Source: a virus. Taken from it: a stretch of 17,214 nucleotides of DNA. This document shows, in pieces, positions 1,227 to 13,505 of the stretch. The stretch is taken from the UHGV virus genome UHGV-0135926. One strand, 5' to 3'. A program made the translations under genes and the position numbers. Each line of letters opens with the position of its first letter. The first letter of the stretch is position 1. The notes beneath the pieces were generated by a model. It was not told the DNA's origin, did no database searches, and saw only the letters and a program-made list of their open reading frames with translations.

Positions 1227-2153
1227 TTAAATATTCTCCTGTTTTGGTGCTGCTTTAATCATTGCTGCCCAGCACAACTCAGCCCGGCGCGCCGCCTGGC
1301 GGCATCCACTCAATGCTTCGTATTCCTTCCACTCTTTTTCATCGCTGAAATGCGGATCTGGAACCGATTCGAAGCCGTTAATAATCATGTCCTCGGTCGG
1401 AACGATAGGAACCAGTACGTAACCATCCGGAGTAACCGGAGAGTTGCCCGAGATTGATTCCTGCAATCGTTCCAGCCTCACGTATTCCTGTACGCAGGCG
1501 CCTGAGTAATTATTAAGCCATATAGCAGCCTTTTCTGGTTCTGGCGTATACGTAACTACGTCGCCCGGCTTCCAGCATAGTGCGTACAAGTCGGCGACTG
1601 GTTTAAATTGGGTTTCAGCAAACTTGCAAGCCTGGAGCATGCTTTCTTCGAATTCTGCGACCTGTGGGTCTACTGGCGTAGATAAGTCGCGAACCGCATC
1701 GCCAGCTTGGAGCATGGCGGCGCGGCAGGCGTTCCATCCTCTGACCTCTGCGATTGCAGCTACAGCGTCTATTGCATGCATTTTCGACGCTTCTGGCATC
1801 GGCTTTTCATCTGGCAATACTGGCTCTGCGTTCCTCGATGCCAGCACCTCATCAATCACCTTCAACATATCTGCGAGAATGTAAGCTCTGTTCCCGCCGT
1901 TTGAGTACTGGGTATCATGCTGCAGGTGGTCGCGTATTTGGTGCAGGCGATCGAGTGATACAGGACCGTGCGACGGGTGGTTGTTAGTTGATTTAGAGAA
2001 ATTTCCCCGTTCGTTAATTAAATTACGATGAGTACGCAATTCTCGTAATGCTGAAATTATCTGTGAGAATTTCTCGTCATGAGGCAATGGACCAGAAGAA
2101 TTTACCGCTGATTTAATCAGGCTATCTAACTGCTCATTGGTTATTTTTTCCAT
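1227..2153 (-). CDS. Hypothetical protein (308 aa), no recognisable domain
   Basis: Long ORF. Start chosen at ATG 2151-2153 (MEKITNEQ…), which has AAGGAG 6 nt upstream and overlaps the stop (2153-2155) of the upstream gene. The track's longer start at 2174 has no RBS. Confidence 0.6.
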   Translation of the reverse strand: MEKITNEQLDSLIKSAVNSSGPLPHDEKFSQIISALRELRTHRNLINERGNFSKSTNNHPSHGPVSLDRLHQIRDHLQHDTQYSNGGNRAYILADMLKVIDEVLASRNAEPVLPDEKPMPEASKMHAIDAVAAIAEVRGWNACRAAMLQAGDAVRDLSTPVDPQVAEFEESMLQACKFAETQFKPVADLYALCWKPGDVVTYTPEPEKAAIWLNNYSGACVQEYVRLERLQESISGNSPVTPDGYVLVPIVPTEDMIINGFESVPDPHFSDEKEWKEYEALSGCRQAARRAELCWAAMIKAAPKQENI

Positions 2154-2614
2154 TACCTTCTCCTTATTTCCCAAAGAACGCGTGTAACACCACCATTTCC
2201 TACCGGGTCTCGCTTATCTTTCAGTGCAACGCTTGATGCTGCCCACCCTTTTCTCGCGGGAAGTTCCTTAACCCGGACAAAACCAGCCGCGCGCAGCGAT
2301 GCCCCGGATTCATCCGCTTGGGTGTAGGTTATGCAGCGCTGATAACCCATAGCCTTTGCTGCCCGCCAGATTGCTCCATAAAGAGCGCTGTTAGCGTTGC
2401 GCTCTCCAGTTGTGCAAGTACGGTTAACCTCCAGAGTAAGGCCATCATCGAAATTCCTGGCTATTGGTCTTCCTGCGGTAGCTACGCCAATCAATTCACC
2501 ATCAGAATTTTTCAGACCGATACTAAATTTATGTCCTGTTGGCGGTTTGTTGTGACGGTGATGTTTCGCCACAAATTCTTTGGCAACTTTTAAGGTGATT
2601 GGTGAAATCTGCAT
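2153..2614 (-). CDS. Hypothetical protein (153 aa); possible acyltransferase-like fold (weak)
   Basis: ORF with ATG at 2612-2614, GGGGGAG upstream and its stop overlapping the next start. Family not confidently recognised; the C-terminal …ADESGASLRAAGF… is loosely GNAT-like. Confidence 0.55.
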   Translation of the reverse strand: MQISPITLKVAKEFVAKHHRHNKPPTGHKFSIGLKNSDGELIGVATAGRPIARNFDDGLTLEVNRTCTTGERNANSALYGAIWRAAKAMGYQRCITYTQADESGASLRAAGFVRVKELPARKGWAASSVALKDKRDPVGNGGVTRVLWEIRRR

Positions 2615-7781: not shown

Positions 7782-8628
7782 ATTAACCGGCTACGTATGG
7801 GATGGTTGCGCGGCGTCGGGCATGAAGTTGTCTAGTGTCGCGATCATGGCCCGCCTCGCTGATTTCAGCAGCGATGAGGGCGTGTGCTGGCCGTCCATTG
7901 AAACTATTGCTCGCCAGCTTGGCGCAGGGCCGAGCACTATCAGAACGGCAATCGCTAAGCTTGAAAAAGATGGCTGGCTCACGCGTACACAGCGCCGTAA
8001 TGGTAACCGTAATGCTTCGAACGTGTACCGCCTGAATGTGGCGAAACTTCAGGCTGCCGCATTTTCTCAACTGTCAGATTCTGACACGTCAAAATCTGAC
8101 GCATCAAAATTTGACGCCTCAAAAACTGACCCGTCGAAATCCGTCAAAAACGGCGGTTTTGACCCGTCAGAATCTGGCGGGGATCCGTCAGTAAAATCAA
8201 AACAAGATCCACAAGTAACTTCAAAACCCTCTTGTCCGGTTGCGGCGCAACCAGACCCTGAAGTCGTGATTACTGATCAGGCAATTTTGGTTCTGACCCA
8301 TTTGAACAAGATCAGCGGATCCCGGTATCAGAAATCAAAAACATCCCTGGAGAACATCCGTGCCCGACTGCGTGAGGGATACAGCGTTGCAGACCTGCAA
8401 CTGGTTATCGACCTGAAGCATGAGCACTGGCACGAGAACGACGAGCAGTACCAGTACATGCGCCCGGAAACGCTGTTCGGCCCGAAGAAATTCGAGAGCT
8501 ATCTGCAAAGCGCTACCCGCTGGGAGCAGAAGGGACGGCCTAAACGCGCTGACTGGGGTGCGAAAAAGCGCGATGTGATGGCTTTTGGTCCGGTTGATAC
8601 AACGATTCCAGAGGGGTTCAGAGGATGA
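7771..8628 (+). CDS. Replication initiator (lambda O-like role): N-terminal HTH, iteron-encoded repeat linker, conserved phage C-terminal domain
   Basis: 285 aa; the internal peptide repeat SDSDTSKSDASKFDASKTDPSKS is encoded by the iteron array. Position downstream of the CII analogue. Stop overlaps the next start (ATGA). Confidence 0.8.
   Translation: MSTKLTGYVWDGCAASGMKLSSVAIMARLADFSSDEGVCWPSIETIARQLGAGPSTIRTAIAKLEKDGWLTRTQRRNGNRNASNVYRLNVAKLQAAAFSQLSDSDTSKSDASKFDASKTDPSKSVKNGGFDPSESGGDPSVKSKQDPQVTSKPSCPVAAQPDPEVVITDQAILVLTHLNKISGSRYQKSKTSLENIRARLREGYSVADLQLVIDLKHEHWHENDEQYQYMRPETLFGPKKFESYLQSATRWEQKGRPKRADWGAKKRDVMAFGPVDTTIPEGFRG
8071..8198. repeat. Origin-type iteron array inside the replication gene (15-bp period)
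   Basis: Tandem TGACACGTCAAAATC (8082-8096), TGACGCATCAAAATT (8097-8111), TGACGCCTCAAAAAC (8112-8126), TGACCCGTCGAAATC (8127-8141), then degenerate copies to 8198. Followed by an A-rich stretch. Confidence 0.7.
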
Positions 8629-9506
8629 CGTTAAACAAATATTGCCAGTCGCTGGCGGAACTACGTAGCCAACCAGCCCACGAATTGAAAGAAGTTGGCG
8701 ATCAGTGGCGAACACCGGATCTGCTTTTTTGGGGGATCAACGCGCTATTTGGTCCATTAGTTCTGGACTTGTTTGCTGACGCCGACAACGCGAAATGCCC
8801 GGCATGGTACACCGCCGAAGATAACGCGCTGACGCAGGACTGGTCTGAACGTCTGGCAGAACTGGGTGGCGCTGGCTATGGCAACCCACCGTATAGCCGT
8901 TCGCAGTACCACGAGAAACAGGCGATCACTGGTATGACGCACATCATGAAATACGCAGCAGCCCAGCGCGAGAAGGGCGGTCGCTATGTATTCCTGATAA
9001 AAGCCGCGCCGAGTGAAACGTGGTGGCCGGAAGATGCCGATCACATTGTATTCATTCGCGGGCGCATTGGGTTCGATCTGCCTGTGTGGTTTGTACCTGC
9101 TGACGAAAAACAGAAACCCACCAGCGCGTTTTTTGCCGGTGCCATAGCTGTATTCGATAAGTCGTGGCGTGGTGAGCGGTTCAGCTATATCAACCGCACA
9201 GAACTGGAGGCAAAAGGTCGGGAATTTATGGCGCTGGCTCAATTCGCTGTTGGTAAAGAGCAAACAATTGCAGTGCGGACAGCCCAGGAACCAGTAATAC
9301 CATCGGAAACTGAGTCACGTATCTGGCCTCTAGAGGTTGGTCTGGTGTTTAACCAGGTGGAAGGCGTTGACGTATTGAGTGAGGCTCAGCAGAACAAGCT
9401 GAAAGCCAACATCAATCAACTCTGGCTGGAACGAACGGCCACCAGCGAAATTATTACAATTGCGCGTGGTCTTGTTGGCAGCATGCAGGGGGTAACCCAT
9501 GCGTGA
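8625..9506 (+). CDS. Phage Dam-family DNA N6-adenine methyltransferase
   Basis: 293 aa; catalytic NPPY motif (…GYGNPPYSRS…). Translationally coupled to both neighbours (ATGA at 8625, 8-nt overlap with the next gene). Confidence 0.8.
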   Translation: MTLNKYCQSLAELRSQPAHELKEVGDQWRTPDLLFWGINALFGPLVLDLFADADNAKCPAWYTAEDNALTQDWSERLAELGGAGYGNPPYSRSQYHEKQAITGMTHIMKYAAAQREKGGRYVFLIKAAPSETWWPEDADHIVFIRGRIGFDLPVWFVPADEKQKPTSAFFAGAIAVFDKSWRGERFSYINRTELEAKGREFMALAQFAVGKEQTIAVRTAQEPVIPSETESRIWPLEVGLVFNQVEGVDVLSEAQQNKLKANINQLWLERTATSEIITIARGLVGSMQGVTHA

Positions 9507-11433
9507 GATTATCGTTGATAACTTTGCTGGTGGCGGTGGCGCATCAACGGGTATTGAACTGGCGATCGGGCGCAGCGTGGATATTGCGATAAACCACGAC
9601 GAAAACGCCATTGCGATGCACAAGACGAACCACCCGGACACACTGCATTATTGTGAATCCGTATTTGACGTGGATCCGGTAGCCGCCACCGGAGGTCATC
9701 CTGTCGGACTGGCATGGTTTAGCCCGGACTGCCGACACTTCTCGAAGGCAAAAGGCGCAAAGCCTGTGAAAAAAGAGATACGCGGTCTGGCCTGGATTGT
9801 TCTGCGTTGGGCACTGGCAAAGCGACCGCGCGTGATGATGCTGGAGAACGTGGAAGAGTTCAAAACGTGGGGACCGCTGCTGGCCGATGAAATGCGTCCG
9901 GATCCTGCCCGCACTGGCGAAACATTCAATGCATTTGTCGGCATGCTGTCCACTGGCATTCCTGCTGATCACCCGGCACTGGCTGAGGTTTGTGAGTTTC
10001 TGTCTATCGAAAGAGGTAGCGAGCAGGCACAAAAGCTGGTGGATGGGCTGGGATATGATGTTGATTATCGCGAACTACGTGCGTGTGATTACGGCGCGCC
10101 GACGATCCGCAAACGCTTCTTCATGGTTATGCGTTGCGATGGTTGCCCAATCCAGTGGCCTGCTATTACCCATGGGGATCCTAAGTCTCTGGAGGTGCAA
10201 AGTGGCAGGCTGATGCCATGGCGTACCGCTGCGGAATGTATCGACTGGAATATTCCGGCCCTGTCCATCTTCGACCGCAAAAAACCGCTGGCGGAGAACA
10301 CTCTGAAGCGGATCGCGCGCGGCATACAGCGCTTTGTTATCGAAAGTGCGTCGCCGTTTATTGTGAAGTGCAACCACACGAGCTCAAAAAATGCGTATGA
10401 CGCTTTTCGCGGACAGTCACTGAATGAGCCATTACAGACCATTACTAAAAAACTCGGCTACGCGTTAGCCGTTCCACACCTGACAAAATTCCGCACTGGC
10501 GCAACCGGGCAGCCCCTTACCGAACCTGTTCCGACGGTAACCGCTGGCACGTCAAAACGCCCGGGCGGGAACGGGCATGCACTCGGGATTGTTGAGGCTG
10601 CACTGACGCCATTCCTGGCGGGTAATGGTGGTAGTGAATACCAGGCGAAACCGCGCCCGCTGGATAAACCTGCTCATACCATTCTGAAGCAATCCCGAGC
10701 CTGTCTGGTTGCGCCAGTGATAGCCCGCCAGTTTGGGGCCAGCGTCGGCCACCGTGCAGACGAACCGAGCGCAACCATCACCGCTGGTGGTGGCGGTAAA
10801 TCTCAACCGGTAACGCCTACGCTGATTCAGATGGGTTATGGCGAACGACCTGGGCAAGAACCGCGTGTGCTGCGACTGGATAACCCGCTGGGGACCGTTA
10901 CTGCAGGCGGAAATAAATTTGCGACGGTGAGCGCGTTCCTGGCGAAACACTACGGCGGTAACTATACGGGGCCTGGTGTCAGTATGGATGAACCCGCGCA
11001 TTCAGTGACCACTGTCGACCATCATGCGGTAGTTGCCTCTCATCTGGTGAAACTGCGTGGAACATGCCGCGACGGGCAACGCCTTGATGTGCCAATGCCA
11101 ACAATCACTGCTGGTGGCCAACACGTGGGTGAGGTACGCACATTTCTCGAGACGTATTGCGGGGAAAGTGACGATGAATGGCTGGTAACGATCGATGGGG
11201 TTAAATACCAGATCGTTGATATCGGAATGCGCATGTTGCAGCCGCATGAACTCTACAAAGCGCAGGGCTTCCCGGATGGTTACGTTATTGATCAGGACTA
11301 CCGTGGAAATCGCTATGCAAAAGATAAGCAGGTAGCCCGCTGCGGTAATGCGGTACCACCACCATTCGCCAGGGCGCTGGTGGAGGCAAATCTTCCGGAA
11401 CTGTGTGCAGTGCAACAGCAGGAGGTGGCATGA
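9499..11433 (+). CDS. DNA cytosine-5 methyltransferase with a long repeat-containing variable region
   Basis: 644 aa. Motif I FAGGGG, PC-type motif SPDCRHFS, motif VI MLENV, motif VIII TIRKRFFMV, motif IX LQPHELYKAQGFPDGY, motif X RCGNAVPPPF. Between VIII and IX there are seven tandem units with core h-[DNT]-[EKNV]-P-x-x-[TS]-[IV]-T. Confidence 0.85.
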   Translation: MREIIVDNFAGGGGASTGIELAIGRSVDIAINHDENAIAMHKTNHPDTLHYCESVFDVDPVAATGGHPVGLAWFSPDCRHFSKAKGAKPVKKEIRGLAWIVLRWALAKRPRVMMLENVEEFKTWGPLLADEMRPDPARTGETFNAFVGMLSTGIPADHPALAEVCEFLSIERGSEQAQKLVDGLGYDVDYRELRACDYGAPTIRKRFFMVMRCDGCPIQWPAITHGDPKSLEVQSGRLMPWRTAAECIDWNIPALSIFDRKKPLAENTLKRIARGIQRFVIESASPFIVKCNHTSSKNAYDAFRGQSLNEPLQTITKKLGYALAVPHLTKFRTGATGQPLTEPVPTVTAGTSKRPGGNGHALGIVEAALTPFLAGNGGSEYQAKPRPLDKPAHTILKQSRACLVAPVIARQFGASVGHRADEPSATITAGGGGKSQPVTPTLIQMGYGERPGQEPRVLRLDNPLGTVTAGGNKFATVSAFLAKHYGGNYTGPGVSMDEPAHSVTTVDHHAVVASHLVKLRGTCRDGQRLDVPMPTITAGGQHVGEVRTFLETYCGESDDEWLVTIDGVKYQIVDIGMRMLQPHELYKAQGFPDGYVIDQDYRGNRYAKDKQVARCGNAVPPPFARALVEANLPELCAVQQQEVA

Positions 11434-11816
11434 AACTTGTGCTCCCGTTCCCTCCGAGCGTGAACACGTACTGGCGCGCCCCTAATAAGGGGCCGCTGGC
11501 CGGTCGTCACCTCATTAGCGCTGATGCTCGTAAATACCAGAGCGCTGCCTGCGTGGCGATCATTGAGCAATTACGACGTCTCCCGAAGCCATCGACTGAA
11601 CTGGCAGCGGTAGAAATCACTCTGTACCCGCCGGATGCGCGCCGCCGGGATATCGATAATTACAACAAAGCCCTGTTTGACGCGCTGACGCATGCGGGTG
11701 TCTGGGAAGACGACAGCCAGATTAAGCGCATGCTGGTGGAATGGGGACCCGTAGTGCCGAAAGGTCGGGTAGAGATAACGATCAGCAGATATGAACCGGC
11801 GGGTGCAGCCGCCTGA
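11430..11816 (+). CDS. rusA: RusA Holliday-junction resolvase
   Basis: 128 aa from ATG 11430 (AGGAGGTGG upstream, ATGA overlap with the methyltransferase stop). Clear similarity to E. coli RusA (…LPFPPSVNTYW…, …DARRRDIDNYNKALFDALT…). Confidence 0.85.
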   Translation: MKLVLPFPPSVNTYWRAPNKGPLAGRHLISADARKYQSAACVAIIEQLRRLPKPSTELAAVEITLYPPDARRRDIDNYNKALFDALTHAGVWEDDSQIKRMLVEWGPVVPKGRVEITISRYEPAGAAA

Positions 11817-11829
11817 TATGGAGAAAAGT

Positions 11830-12513
11830 ATGAGCCAATTAGCAACAACAGCATTAACCATGTCCAGCAGCGATATTGCTGAGCTGGTGGAATCACGACA
11901 TGACCATGTTAAACGGTCCATTGAACGCCTGGCAGAGCGCGGTGTTATTGAACTCCCCCCAATGGGGGAAGTTAAAAATCACCTCAATCAGTCGGTATCG
12001 GTTTATCTGATAGGGAAGCGGGACAGTTATATCGTTGTCGCGCAGCTGTCGCCGGAGTTTACCGCGCGTCTGGTTGATCGCTGGCAGGAGCTTGAGCAGG
12101 CACAGCAGCAGACGATTCCTCAATCATTCTCTGAAGCCCTACGTCTTGCAGCTGACCTTGCAGAACAAAAACAGCAGTTGACTAACGAACTGGCTGCCGC
12201 GGCGCCGAAGGTAGCGTTTGTTGATCGGTACTGTACAGCCAGTGGGTCAATGTCATTCCGCCAGGTGGCAAAACTGCTTAAGGCCAAAGAGCCAGATCTG
12301 CGGTTATTCCTCCTTGAGAACGACATCATGTATCGCCTTGGCGGAACGATGACCCCACGGCATCAGCATATTGATGCGGGCCGTTTTGAAGTGAAAACCG
12401 GCACATCCGTAACCTCAAATCATGCATTCAGCCAGGCACGTTTCACGGCGAAAGGCGTGCGCTGGATTGGTGGACTGTGGGCAGAACACATTGCCAGGGG
12501 GCAGGTCGCGTGA
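11830..12513 (+). CDS. Rha-family phage regulatory protein with C-terminal KilAC/antirepressor-like domain
   Basis: Start chosen at ATG 11830 (GGAG about 6 nt upstream). N-terminus (…SSSDIAELVESRHDHVKRSIERL…) is Rha-like; the C-terminus is ANT/KilAC-like. Confidence 0.65.
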   Translation: MSQLATTALTMSSSDIAELVESRHDHVKRSIERLAERGVIELPPMGEVKNHLNQSVSVYLIGKRDSYIVVAQLSPEFTARLVDRWQELEQAQQQTIPQSFSEALRLAADLAEQKQQLTNELAAAAPKVAFVDRYCTASGSMSFRQVAKLLKAKEPDLRLFLLENDIMYRLGGTMTPRHQHIDAGRFEVKTGTSVTSNHAFSQARFTAKGVRWIGGLWAEHIARGQVA

Positions 12514-13505
12514 GAGCTCTGCTTACCCCCGAGATCGCCCATCGTATGGGGATTGTGCTGTTCCGTCCCGGTGCGGAACTGATGCACCTCTTCATGCGTG
12601 GTCGCGTTCTGCTCGAGCCTGAACCAGAAGAAATGGCGTCATTCAGTACCGGGGCTGTTCCGGCAGCCATTCAGCCGCTGGCTGATGATCCGGTAATGCG
12701 TCAGGTCTTCGAGAATGAGAGGGTTATTCAGCGTGCCGGTGGGATTTCTTCCCTTGAGCAATGGTTGAGTAATCGGTTTGTATGCCAGTGGCCACATTCA
12801 ACGTGGCACGACAAGAACTTCACAACAATGCGGCACCCACCAGGAAGCATTCGCCTGTGCTGGCATTGCGATCACACTTTGTCGGGGCAGCATACCGAAC
12901 AGCTTGCAGGTATAGCGGCCGGAAACCTGGTATCCTGGATTCTGGAAGTCATTCGGCGTGATTCTGGTTTTCCCGAGTCGCATATCCTGACGCTTCCGGA
13001 ACTGTGCTGGTGGATGGTTAGAAACGACCTGGCTGATGTTATTCCGGAAAGCGTTGCGCACAAGGGGCTACGCCTTCCGGATGAGAAGATCCGCTCGGTC
13101 ATGAGGGAAAGCGACATTGTGCCTTCCGCGTCTGCAACCAGCCTCGTGCAGGAGAAGGCGAAGAAGATCCTAACGCTCTCTGTTGATCCGGAGTCGCCAG
13201 AGTCTTTCATGCTCAGGCCAAAGCGACGCCGCTGGGTAAATGAGACGTACACCCGCTGGGTTAAAACACAACCCTGTGAGTGTTGCCGACGGCCAGCAGA
13301 TGATCCGCACCATATCGTAGGGCACGGTATGGGTGGTACAGCAACAAAAGCCCATGACCTCTTCGTGATCCCTCTGTGCAGAGAGTGCCACGACGAGTTA
13401 CACGCCGATGTACCAGCATTCGAGCAGAAGCATGGTACGCAGCTTGAGCTGCTACTGCGTTTTATGGATCGGGCGCTGGCGATCGGCGTAATTGCGAAAG
13501 CTTAA
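12510..13505 (+). CDS. DUF968 / YdfU-like protein with C-terminal Cys/His HNH-like motif
   Basis: GTG at 12510-12512 overlaps the upstream TGA (GTGA). C-terminal …CECCRRP…HHIVGHGMGG…PLCRECHDELH… resembles the Qin-prophage YdfU family, which sits next to QuuQ in E. coli. Confidence 0.6.
   Translation: MRALLTPEIAHRMGIVLFRPGAELMHLFMRGRVLLEPEPEEMASFSTGAVPAAIQPLADDPVMRQVFENERVIQRAGGISSLEQWLSNRFVCQWPHSTWHDKNFTTMRHPPGSIRLCWHCDHTLSGQHTEQLAGIAAGNLVSWILEVIRRDSGFPESHILTLPELCWWMVRNDLADVIPESVAHKGLRLPDEKIRSVMRESDIVPSASATSLVQEKAKKILTLSVDPESPESFMLRPKRRRWVNETYTRWVKTQPCECCRRPADDPHHIVGHGMGGTATKAHDLFVIPLCRECHDELHADVPAFEQKHGTQLELLLRFMDRALAIGVIAKA

What the first reader, a model, noticed from the sequence alone, without database searches (positions are those of the whole stretch)
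10420..11130. C5-cytosine methyltransferase with seven tandem TRD-like repeats: candidate multispecific enzyme
Between catalytic motifs VIII and IX the 644-aa enzyme has seven consecutive 30-45 aa units, each beginning h-[DNT]-[EKNV]-P-x-x-[TS]-[IV]-T (LNEPLQTIT, LTEPVPTVT, LDKPAHTIL, ADEPSATIT, LDNPLGTVT, MDEPAHSVT, LDVPMPTIT). Tandem target-recognition domains are the hallmark of the multispecific C5 methyltransferases of Bacillus phages. A seven-unit version in an enterobacterial phage would be unusual.
Basis: partly seen in the sequence, partly recalled or inferred. Interest (0 to 1): 0.6.

Follow-up and report, generated by a model that had tools for sequence, protein, structure and literature searches.

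The report
Phage cytosine methylase with seven recognition cassettes
A Salmonella prophage gene encodes a DNA cytosine methyltransferase carrying seven different, swappable copies of the small module that normally reads the target sequence, so one enzyme may mark several different DNA sequences and shield the phage from many restriction enzymes; this is inferred from sequence only and has not been tested.

Summary
ORF 9499-11433 (+) encodes an intact 644-aa C5-cytosine methyltransferase. Seven h-[DNT]-x-P-x-x-[TS]-[IV]-[TL] units lie between motifs VIII and IX, exactly at the quoted positions (7 found, 0.08 expected by chance).

The units are old, diverged paralogues (about 26% identical, no DNA repeat). 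They are under purifying selection at least as strong as the catalytic core (dN/dS 0.03 against 0.06).

Close homologues (79-98% identical) show 12 architectures built from 9 unit types. Internal units are gained or lost cleanly and always in the same register. Family-wide there are at least 16 recurrent cassette types. A type is almost never used twice in one protein, and a third of frequent type pairs occur in both orders.

The same core motif marks each unit in the variable regions of the Bacillus phage multispecific enzymes (sequences fetched here) and the DNA-reading segments of M.HaeIII and M.HhaI.

The gene is an orphan in the nin region of a lambdoid prophage, next to a Dam-type methylase.

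A multispecific anti-restriction methylase is the best reading (about 0.55), but no methylation data exist and AlphaFold2 was uninformative. Seven units is not unusual: the family has thousands of members with about 2-12 units. This is a new variant of a known kind.

The parts
9499..11433 (+). Complete gene for a 644-aa C5-cytosine DNA methyltransferase. Its start overlaps the upstream Dam-type methylase gene by 8 nt, and an AGGGGG Shine-Dalgarno-like run lies upstream of the ATG.
9523..10128 (+). N-terminal catalytic core: motif I FAGGGG (9523-9540), motif IV SPDC with the catalytic Cys78 (9721-9744), motif VI ENV (9844-9861), motif VIII TIRKRFFMV (10102-10128).
   Evidence: These residues are invariant in alignments A1 and A2. 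AF2 pLDDT is mostly 78-98 here apart from one low loop at 82-90. Foldseek matches 3g7u, DNMT1, M.HaeIII and M.HhaI.
10135..10356 (+). Conserved 74-aa region after motif VIII (…PIQWPAITHG…PWRTAAECIDW…PLAENTLKRIARGIQRFV…). It is the family-specific scaffold that precedes the cassette array.
   Evidence: The consensus and many invariant columns appear. AF2 models it partly (helix 266-281).
10354..10467 (+). Cassette U1 (type C, aa 286-323, core LNEPLQTIT). It is the first cassette and is present in all 121 close homologues.
10468..10605 (+). Cassette U2 (type E, aa 324-369, core LTEPVPTVT, with a long Gly-rich turn). It is cleanly absent from P0062 and P0106.
10606..10704 (+). Cassette U3 (type F, aa 370-402, core LDKPAHTIL). 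It is cleanly absent from P0040 and P0117.
10705..10806 (+). Cassette U4 (type D, aa 403-436, core ADEPSATIT followed by AGGGGKSQ). It is cleanly absent from P0079.
10807..10926 (+). Cassette U5 (type G, aa 437-476, …GYGERPGQEPRVLRLDNPLGTVTAGGNKF). It is absent from 37 cluster representatives with the CEFDAB architecture. It is found in 145 distant proteins. It aligns colinearly with the M.HhaI TRD core.
10927..11031 (+). Cassette U6 (type A, aa 477-511, core MDEPAHSVTTVDHH). It is the best match in the array to the DEPAFTVNTIDRHG segment shared by the four Bacillus phage enzymes.
11032..11133 (+). Cassette U7 (type B, aa 512-545, core LDVPMPTITAGGQH). It is the last cassette and is present in all close homologues. 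Its Thr lies 43 aa before motif IX; by my own count on the sequences printed, the corresponding distance is roughly 20-40 aa in M.HhaI, M.HaeIII and Dcm.
   Evidence: sequences
11134..11226 (+). Remnant of the family's canonical final cassette (…PLHTVTTKDRFGLVTV…). In the query clade a 16-aa deletion removed its P-x-x-T-x-T core, leaving FLETYCGESDDEWLVTIDGVKYQIVDIG.
   Evidence: Alignment with P0076. Type 5 is present in 156 distant proteins.
11227..11370 (+). C-terminal catalytic part: motif IX MRMLQPHELYKAQGFPDGY (11227-11283) and motif X GNAVPPPFA (11344-11370).
8625..9506 (+). Neighbouring phage Dam-type N6-adenine methyltransferase (293 aa). Its end overlaps the start of the C5 enzyme gene, which suggests translational coupling.
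   Evidence: Pfam PF05869, E 9.5e-44. The same gene pair occurs in E. coli prophages.

Best explanation
The gene encodes an orphan, phage-borne C5-cytosine methyltransferase. Its target-recognition region is an array of seven different, self-contained recognition cassettes of about 33-46 aa. Each cassette consists of a beta-strand-like hydrophobic stretch, a Gly-rich and basic loop (often G-Q), the segment h-D/E-E-P-x-x-T-V/I-T, and a Gly-rich turn. That layout matches the DNA-reading core of the single recognition domain of ordinary C5 methylases.

The most likely mechanism (inferred) is that one catalytic core uses the cassettes alternately. Each active cassette would direct methylation of its own short target sequence. 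Made from the delayed-early nin region during lytic growth together with the adjacent Dam-type adenine methylase, the enzyme would then pre-methylate progeny phage DNA against several host Type II restriction systems at once. Some cassettes may be inactive pseudo-domains, as I recall was reported for the Bacillus enzymes.

Shown here: an intact enzyme, the cassette anatomy, cassette modularity, selection on the array, and the prophage context. Inferred: that each cassette confers a separate specificity, and the anti-restriction role.
For: (1) All catalytic motifs are intact and invariant in the family.
(2) Seven units are present against 0.08 expected by chance.
(3) The real sequences of M.SPRI, M.Rho11sI, M.H2I and M.Phi3TI show 3, 4, 4 and 2 tandem [S/P]xT[IL]T…G.G units spaced 30-49 aa apart in their VIII-IX regions. 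This is the same design. The VIII-IX distance is 106-121 aa in M.HhaI, M.HaeIII and Dcm, 186-279 aa in the Bacillus phage enzymes, and about 368 aa here.
(4) Type-specific cassette HMMs pick out exactly these cores in the Bacillus enzymes and RQWNEPAFTVQASGR in M.HaeIII (z 2.3-4.3, at most 7 of 300 shuffles reaching the score). U6 matches DEPAFTVNTIDRHG (z 4.6-5.1). The U5 cassette aligns colinearly with the M.HhaI segment …GKGGQGERIYSTRGIAITLSAYGGG… (z 3.7).
(5) Modularity: there are 12 architectures from 9 types among proteins at least 78% identical. Each internal cassette is individually dispensable, and the joints are always in the same register.
(6) The array is constrained: dN/dS is 0.03 against 0.06 for the core, at dS above 1. 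Orthologous cassettes in proteins 45-60% identical overall are conserved about as well as the catalytic core, while the seven cassettes of the query are only about 26% identical to each other.
(7) Non-redundancy: the same type occurs twice in one protein 17 times against 144 expected. Shuffling: 32 of 97 frequent type pairs occur in both orders.
(8) The canonical last cassette has been deleted in the query clade, so another cassette must serve in its place.
(9) Context: a lambdoid prophage nin region with no restriction gene nearby. Distant members in Bordetella, Brevibacillus and Terrimicrobium are also in prophage early regions, and 97 phage records carry the array.
Against: There are no methylation data for any member of this family in the searchable literature.

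Unit-level similarity to proven TRDs is weak and rests largely on a short motif. Many comparisons were made. A unit profile finds no C5-MTase in the PDB.

AlphaFold2 gave pLDDT below 50 for the whole array, with both a full-length alignment and a three-cassette alignment. There is therefore no structural support that a cassette folds or docks as a TRD.

The non-redundancy and order statistics ignore the phylogenetic relatedness of the proteins, and the Louvain types are approximate.

Conserved order among close homologues and type-specific conservation would also fit one large composite domain.

How one catalytic core could use seven alternative cassettes is structurally unexplained. To my knowledge this is also unexplained for the Bacillus enzymes.
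Confidence: 0.55

Rival explanations
1. The seven units fold together into one large composite DNA-binding domain, so the enzyme has a single specificity, possibly long or degenerate. Losing or gaining a unit would tune that one specificity or the affinity; it would not add or remove a target.
For: Among close homologues the order C-E-F-D-G-A-(A/H)-B is fixed, and the first and last units are always present. Type-specific conservation is also expected for a non-repetitive multi-part domain. The low-confidence AF2 fragment model pairs the strand of one unit with the strand of the next.
Against: Every internal unit can be missing in otherwise 85-97% identical proteins. Across the family a third of frequent type pairs occur in both orders. 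The canonical last unit is deleted in the query clade without loss of the reading frame or of conservation. A single cassette already spans the whole M.HhaI recognition core.
Confidence: 0.2
2. The enzyme is a relaxed-specificity or near non-specific cytosine methylase (very short motif). The array would act mainly as a general DNA-binding or processivity region, by analogy with non-specific phage adenine methylases such as M.EcoGII.
For: The context is an orphan prophage methylase, like M.EcoGII (review PMC12707154). The loops are Gly-rich and basic. AF2 sees no fixed fold.
Against: General DNA binding does not require seven different cassette types. It also does not explain each type being conserved across phyla as strongly as the catalytic core, or the near-absence of duplicated types.
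Confidence: 0.12
3. The array is a flexible or disordered linker, or a protein-interaction region, with no part in DNA sequence recognition.
For: AF2 predicts coil with pLDDT below 50 for aa 283-575. The region has many Gly, Pro and Thr residues.
Against: dN/dS is 0.03 at dS above 1, lower than in the catalytic core. The array occupies exactly the position of the TRD. Without it the enzyme would have no T-[IVL] recognition core at all, because the canonical last unit is deleted.
Confidence: 0.05

Closest known systems
Multispecific C5-cytosine methyltransferases of Bacillus temperate phages (M.SPRI, M.Phi3TI, M.Rho11sI, M.H2I; SPbeta group)
   Same: Both are phage-borne orphan C5-MTases with a single catalytic core. 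Both have an enlarged motif VIII-IX region holding tandem, non-overlapping units of roughly 30-50 aa, each with a …P/S-x-T-[ILV]-T…Gly-rich core. In both, natural variants differ by which units they carry: SPR has 3, rho11s and H2 have 4, and phi3T has 2, against the 12 architectures here. U6 resembles their shared DEPAFTVNTIDRHG unit.
   Different: The lineage of catalytic core and scaffold is different. Unit-level similarity is only marginal. The query has seven cassettes, the family has up to about 12, and there are at least 16 recurrent cassette types. Hosts include Gram-negative bacteria and many phyla. The specificities are unknown and untested here, whereas I recall from the literature (Trautner and colleagues) that each Bacillus TRD was mapped genetically to a target; I could not read those papers here.
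Monospecific bacterial C5-MTases with solved DNA complexes (M.HhaI, M.HaeIII)
   Same: The ten-motif catalytic core is the same. One cassette is colinear with the M.HhaI TRD core: loop, strand, T-L, Gly-rich loop. Cassette HMMs hit the NEPAFTVQASGR segment of M.HaeIII.
   Different: Those enzymes have one such unit and a VIII-IX distance of 106-117 aa. Here there are seven units in about 368 aa.
Putative methyltransferase of E. coli prophage CP-933R (PDB 3g7u)
   Same: It is the closest solved structure by both sequence and fold for the catalytic domain, and it is also prophage-borne.
   Different: It is 376 aa long and the match covers only the catalytic motifs. There is no match to the array.
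M.BceSV (Bacillus cereus ATCC 10987 prophage), reported as a multi-specific C5-MTase
   Same: It is a prophage-encoded orphan. It was reported as multi-specific when cloned and silent in the lysogen (PMC3526280; PMC11347163).
   Different: It is again a Bacillus enzyme.

Membership tests
C5-cytosine DNA methyltransferase (Pfam PF00145) | Conserved motifs I, IV (P-C), VI (ENV), VIII, IX and X in the canonical order | tested here: met
   PF00145 E 5.4e-20, above the gathering score. Motif-level alignments to 3g7u and DNMT1. Invariant F9, G11-14, P76, C78, E116-N117-V118, R204, R206, R578, E584, G616 and N617. Foldseek hits to C5-MTase cores.
Multispecific phage C5-MTase (SPbeta-group type) | Enlarged variable region between motifs VIII and IX holding two or more tandem, non-overlapping TRD units, each with a T-[LIV] core | tested here: met
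   Seven units spaced 32-48 aa apart in a roughly 368-aa VIII-IX region. The same layout appears in the fetched SPR, rho11s, H2 and phi3T sequences.
Multispecific phage C5-MTase (SPbeta-group type) | TRDs are modular: natural relatives differ by presence, absence or exchange of individual TRDs | tested here: met
   There are 12 architectures from 9 types among proteins at least 78% identical, with in-register joints. Types are shuffled and non-redundant family-wide.
Multispecific phage C5-MTase (SPbeta-group type) | Each TRD independently confers methylation of a distinct target sequence | not testable with these tools
   This needs methylome data from the cloned gene and from cassette deletions. 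None were found in the literature searches.
Multispecific phage C5-MTase (SPbeta-group type) | Phage or prophage-borne orphan with no cognate restriction endonuclease | tested here: met
   The neighbours are a Dam-type MTase, RusA, Ant/Rha, DUF968 and Q. The same holds for three distant members.
Multispecific phage C5-MTase (SPbeta-group type) | Common descent of the TRD units with the SPbeta-group TRDs (significant sequence similarity beyond the generic motif) | tested here: inconclusive
   The unit HMM gives i-E 0.2-2.5. Type HMMs give z 2.3-4.3. The best local alignment, U6 against DEPAFTVNTIDRHG, gives z 4.6-5.1. The array works like these enzymes on paper, but it is not shown to belong to their lineage.
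Monospecific Type II C5-MTase | A single TRD with a VIII-IX distance of about 100-140 aa | tested here: not met
   The distance is 106 aa in M.HhaI, 117 in M.HaeIII and 121 in Dcm, against about 368 aa with seven units here.

The most novel reading that the evidence does not exclude
All or most of the seven cassettes are autonomous readers that take turns on one catalytic core. That would give at least five to seven independent target specificities from one polypeptide, more than any characterised methyltransferase. The whole family would then be a combinatorial library of at least 16 recurrent cassette types, about 2-12 per protein, reshuffled by in-register recombination. Phages from Proteobacteria to Firmicutes and Verrucomicrobia would use it as an evolvable master key against restriction systems.
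Probability: 0.3. Interest if true: 0.8.

Novelty: new variant of a known kind. Interest (0 to 1): 0.6.

Why it matters
Multispecific cytosine methylases are a textbook curiosity known from a handful of Bacillus phages, with 2-4 recognition domains. A 2025 review still cites only those (PMC12707154).

If this family works the same way, three things follow:
- The strategy would be widespread. There are thousands of clusters in many phyla and 97 sequenced phages, and the family is common in Salmonella, E. coli, Klebsiella, Citrobacter and Enterobacter prophages.
- The strategy would be far more elaborate than known.
- It would be invisible to routine PacBio methylomics, which detects m5C poorly and would miss enzymes that are silent in lysogens, as was reported for M.BceSV.

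It would bear on phage host range, horizontal transfer and phage-therapy design. It would also give a natural parts list of about 35-aa DNA-reading cassettes, with natural single-cassette knock-outs, for working out and engineering C5-MTase specificity. Finally, it poses a structural question that, as far as I know, is still open for the Bacillus enzymes: how one catalytic domain uses alternative recognition modules.

Tried and rejected
(1) AlphaFold2 on the full protein with a 143-sequence alignment. The catalytic core was confident, but aa 283-575 had pLDDT below 50 and no secondary structure.

(2) AlphaFold2 on cassettes U5-U7 with a 72-row alignment of three-cassette segments. Mean pLDDT was 52 and pTM 0.23, with only two weakly paired strands. 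Both runs are uninformative about the fold. I do not read them as evidence for disorder, given the dN/dS result.

(3) A 34-position unit profile against the PDB found no C5-MTase hit.

(4) A general unit HMM against the Bacillus enzymes gave only marginal hits.

(5) The Dcm (CCWGG) variable region shows no similarity to the array (z -0.1).

(6) DNA-level direct and tandem repeat searches found none, which rejects recent amplification or a contingency locus.

(7) Single-linkage clustering of units chained into one cluster of 1,345 units. I replaced it with Louvain communities.

(8) My regular expression under-counts degenerate units such as EPLRTQC and EPLHTIPT. The counts of 0-2 units are therefore artefacts: the shortest members still show about 4 units by eye.

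(9) Five full-text literature searches and several paper look-ups found no description of this family or of any enterobacterial multispecific C5-MTase. The Trautner 1996 and Xu 2012 papers are not held.

(10) Foldseek of the full model against the PDB matched only catalytic domains.

(11) I did not attempt to assign target sequences to cassettes, because REBASE and characterised TRD sets are not available in these tools. The resemblance of U6 to the Bacillus and M.HaeIII EPAFTV units is a lead for a GGCC-like target, not a finding.
Full report
**1. What is in the window**

The window is part of a lambdoid prophage, and the closest proteins are from Salmonella enterica (98% identity). Pfam assignments, in gene order, are as follows:
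- a 3'-5' exonuclease;
- DUF2303;
- an Ead/Ea22-like protein;
- a cI-type S24 repressor;
- a cII-like regulator;
- a replication protein (Phg_2220_C);
- a Dam-type N6-adenine methyltransferase (8625-9506);
- the gene in question (9499-11433);
- RusA;
- an Ant/Rha antirepressor;
- DUF968;
- antiterminator Q;
- holin and endolysin.

No restriction endonuclease is nearby. The gene is therefore an orphan methylase in the nin (delayed-early) region. Its ATG overlaps the end of the Dam-type gene by 8 nt and follows an AGGGGG run.

**2. The observation**

The ORF is 644 aa and is a bona fide C5-cytosine methyltransferase:
- Pfam PF00145 matches with E 5e-20.
- Motif-level matches to PDB 3g7u and DNMT1 cover motifs I-IV, VIII and IX-X.
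- The catalytic residues are invariant in two family alignments.

Shuffling the protein 20,000 times gives on average 0.08 matches to the loose core P..[TS][IV][TL], and never more than 3, against 7 observed. All seven lie between motif VIII (aa 202-210) and motif IX (aa 577-595). There is no repeat at the DNA level, and the units are only about 26% identical to each other. They are therefore old paralogues and not a recent amplification.

**3. Anatomy of a unit**

An iterated profile built from about 1,100 distinct units gives the consensus …ALVxAFLxKYYGGxxxGQSLDEPLPTVTAGGxH…. Counting positions from the Pro, per-position frequencies over 1,480 distinct units show a fixed scaffold:
- Gly at -6;
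- a hydrophobic residue at -3;
- acidic residues at -2 and -1;
- Leu at +1;
- Thr at +3;
- Val or Ile at +4;
- Thr at +5;
- Ala-Gly-Gly at +6 to +8;
- His at +10, followed by A-L-V.

The variable, type-specific positions are -5 (Q, S, H or A), -4, +2 and +7 to +11.

Alignment of close homologues that differ in unit number shows that every gain or loss has its joints in the same register. The joint falls at the hydrophobic strand that follows the T-x-T-A-G-G turn. This defines the exchangeable cassette as strand, then Gly-rich and basic loop, then h-D-E-P-x-x-T-V-T, then Gly-rich turn. In the query the cassettes are aa 286-323, 324-369, 370-402, 403-436, 437-476, 477-511 and 512-545.

**4. Is it constrained?**

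I compared the gene with E. coli homologues about 81% identical in nucleotide sequence (phage Flotzy and strain MSB1_9D). Over the array, dN/dS is 0.03. Over the N-terminal catalytic core it is 0.06. Synonymous divergence exceeds 1 in both. A third, more distant homologue gives 0.09 against 0.07. A region evolving this conservatively is not an unconstrained linker.

**5. Modularity**

Among the query and 120 cluster representatives at least 78% identical to it, the units fall into 9 types. These build 12 architectures in the order C-E-F-D-G-A-(A/H)-B(-I):
- The query is CEFDGAB (31 representatives).
- CEFDAB is the most common (37 representatives).
- Each internal cassette (E, F, D, G, A, H) is missing from some otherwise near-identical protein.
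- The first and last cassettes are always present.

In the wider family the numbers are as follows:
- An exhaustive search finds 8,362 clusters at 50% identity with E <= 1e-3, and 2,558 with E <= 1e-30.
- The motif count per protein runs from a few to 12. The low counts are under-estimates, because degenerate units escape the pattern.
- The motif VIII-IX distance ranges from 206 to 573 aa, with a median of 379.

Clustering 2,424 cassettes gives at least 16 recurrent types. All seven query types recur in proteins only 45-60% identical overall. There they are conserved about as well as the catalytic core: median identity is 0.47-0.69 against 0.57-0.82.

Two further statistics bear on how the cassettes work:
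- The same type almost never occurs twice in one protein. For internal cassettes, 17 cases were observed against 144 expected if types were dealt at random.
- Of 97 frequent type pairs, 32 occur in both orders.

Both statistics ignore the relatedness of the proteins, and the typing is approximate. Even so, the picture is of distinct, non-redundant modules that can be lost, gained and reordered.

**6. Comparison with real target-recognition domains**

I retrieved the original GenBank records of the four classical multispecific enzymes, from phages SPR, rho11s, H2 and phi3T. Their variable regions contain 3, 4, 4 and 2 tandem units, spaced 30-49 aa apart. Examples are:
- …SPTITTNKGEG;
- …SHTLSASDWRG;
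- …SPTLTTMGGGH;
- …EPAFTVNTIDRHG.

This is the same design as in the query. I recall from the literature that these units are the genetically mapped TRDs. I could not read those papers here.

The statistical support for similarity is modest:
- A general unit HMM hits the Bacillus units only marginally (i-E 0.2-2.5).
- Type-specific HMMs, searched against the variable regions alone, always land on exactly these cores and on RQWNEPAFTVQASGR of M.HaeIII (z 2.3-4.3).
- The best local alignment of the whole array to the SPR and rho11s variable regions pairs U6 (DEPAHSVTTVDHHAVV) with DEPAFTVNTIDRHGVA (z 4.6-5.1, 0 of 300 shuffles).
- The M.HhaI variable region aligns colinearly with the U5 cassette. 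Its GKGGQGER loop falls on GERPGQEPR, its T-L on T-V, and its SAYGGG loop on TAGGN (z 3.7).

From my memory of the M.HhaI-DNA structure, those two loops and the T-L dipeptide make the base-specific contacts. If so, a single cassette contains a complete recognition core.

The E. coli Dcm variable region shows no similarity to the array. A unit profile finds nothing in the PDB.

**7. A telling deletion**

Most family members end the array with a canonical cassette, …EPLHTVTTKDRFGLVTV…, just before motif IX. This is type 5, found in 156 distant proteins. In the query clade a 16-aa deletion has removed its core, leaving …YCGESDDEWLVTIDG…. Cassette U7 now sits 43 aa before motif IX. By my own count on the sequences printed, that is close to the spacing in M.HaeIII and Dcm (about 40 aa). 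The enzyme remains under strong selection. So the canonical cassette is dispensable and another must be able to serve in its place.

**8. Structure**

AlphaFold2 with a 143-sequence alignment models the catalytic domain well but gives pLDDT below 50 for aa 283-575. A second run on cassettes U5-U7, with an alignment of three-cassette segments, gave pLDDT 52. Structure prediction neither supports nor refutes the interpretation. None of the PDB searches returned a multi-TRD enzyme.

**9. Context elsewhere**

Distant members in Bordetella bronchialis, Brevibacillus brevis and Terrimicrobium sacchariphilum all lie in prophage early or replication regions without a restriction gene. The array region is found in 97 phage records infecting Pseudomonas, Vibrio, Aeromonas, Rhizobium, Burkholderia, Pectobacterium, Myxococcus, Roseburia and others. 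All are annotated only as generic cytosine methylases. Pfam and NCBIfam recognise only the catalytic ends of the protein.

**10. Interpretation**

The best-supported reading is a multispecific, anti-restriction C5-methyltransferase whose cassettes are alternative recognition modules (confidence about 0.55).

The main rival is that the cassettes form one composite domain with a single specificity (about 0.2). Fixed order among close relatives favours it. The dispensability of every internal cassette, reordering across the family and the size of a single cassette relative to the M.HhaI core count against it.

A relaxed-specificity enzyme (about 0.12) and a mere linker (about 0.05) fit the conservation pattern poorly.

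**11. Novelty**

In the searchable literature, multispecific C5-MTases are reported only from Bacillus phages and prophages. I could not consult REBASE. I therefore rate this as a new variant of a known kind. The principle is the same, but the protein lineage is different, the array is much larger, the cassette repertoire is large, and the hosts are Gram-negative bacteria and many other phyla.

What is notable is the family itself.

Noticed in passing
window 8625-9506 (+); L005 1674-3008; L006 1674-3008: The upstream Dam-type N6-adenine methylase (293 aa, PF05869 over aa 19-199) has a roughly 90-aa C-terminal extension with no family match. In E. coli relatives the corresponding gene is 444 aa. 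It is annotated as a PAPS reductase in phage Flotzy and as a phage N-6-adenine-methyltransferase in RefSeq. The adenine and cytosine methylase genes overlap in all three loci.
   Followed up: partly
window 2153-2611 (-): A 152-aa ORF in the early-left operon gives a Mom-family (PF25680) hit just below the curated cut-off (26.3 against 27.1 bits, E 6.7e-6). It may be a second DNA-modification function in the same prophage.
   Followed up: no
window 11134-11226 (+): The query clade has lost the core of the family's canonical last cassette through a 16-aa deletion. Only 2 of the 121 close representatives (P0076, P0087) retain it.
   Followed up: yes
L009 2564-5435 (Bordetella bronchialis prophage): The Bordetella homologue (P0272) lies a few genes downstream of what looks like a diversity-generating retroelement: two Lcl_C-domain proteins, bAvd and a reverse transcriptase. 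A small SAM-methyltransferase-like ORF lies directly upstream of the methylase.
   Followed up: no
window 11403-11816 (+): The longest RusA ORF starts at a GTG 31 nt inside the end of the methylase gene. The true start may be the internal ATG (MKLVLPF…) at about 11433, which would give an ATGA-type overlap with the methylase stop codon.
   Followed up: no
window 12477-13505 (+): The DUF968 protein (342 aa) also gives a weak HNHc_6 nuclease hit (21.7 bits, below the cut-off). It is a common lambdoid nin-region gene and not an obvious restriction partner of the methylases.
   Followed up: no
P0130, P0184, P0202, P0215, P0231 (representatives search): Some family members are 990-1,113 aa long, and the region homologous to the query starts at about residue 440-650. 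Large N-terminal extensions or fusions of unknown nature are therefore present.
   Followed up: no
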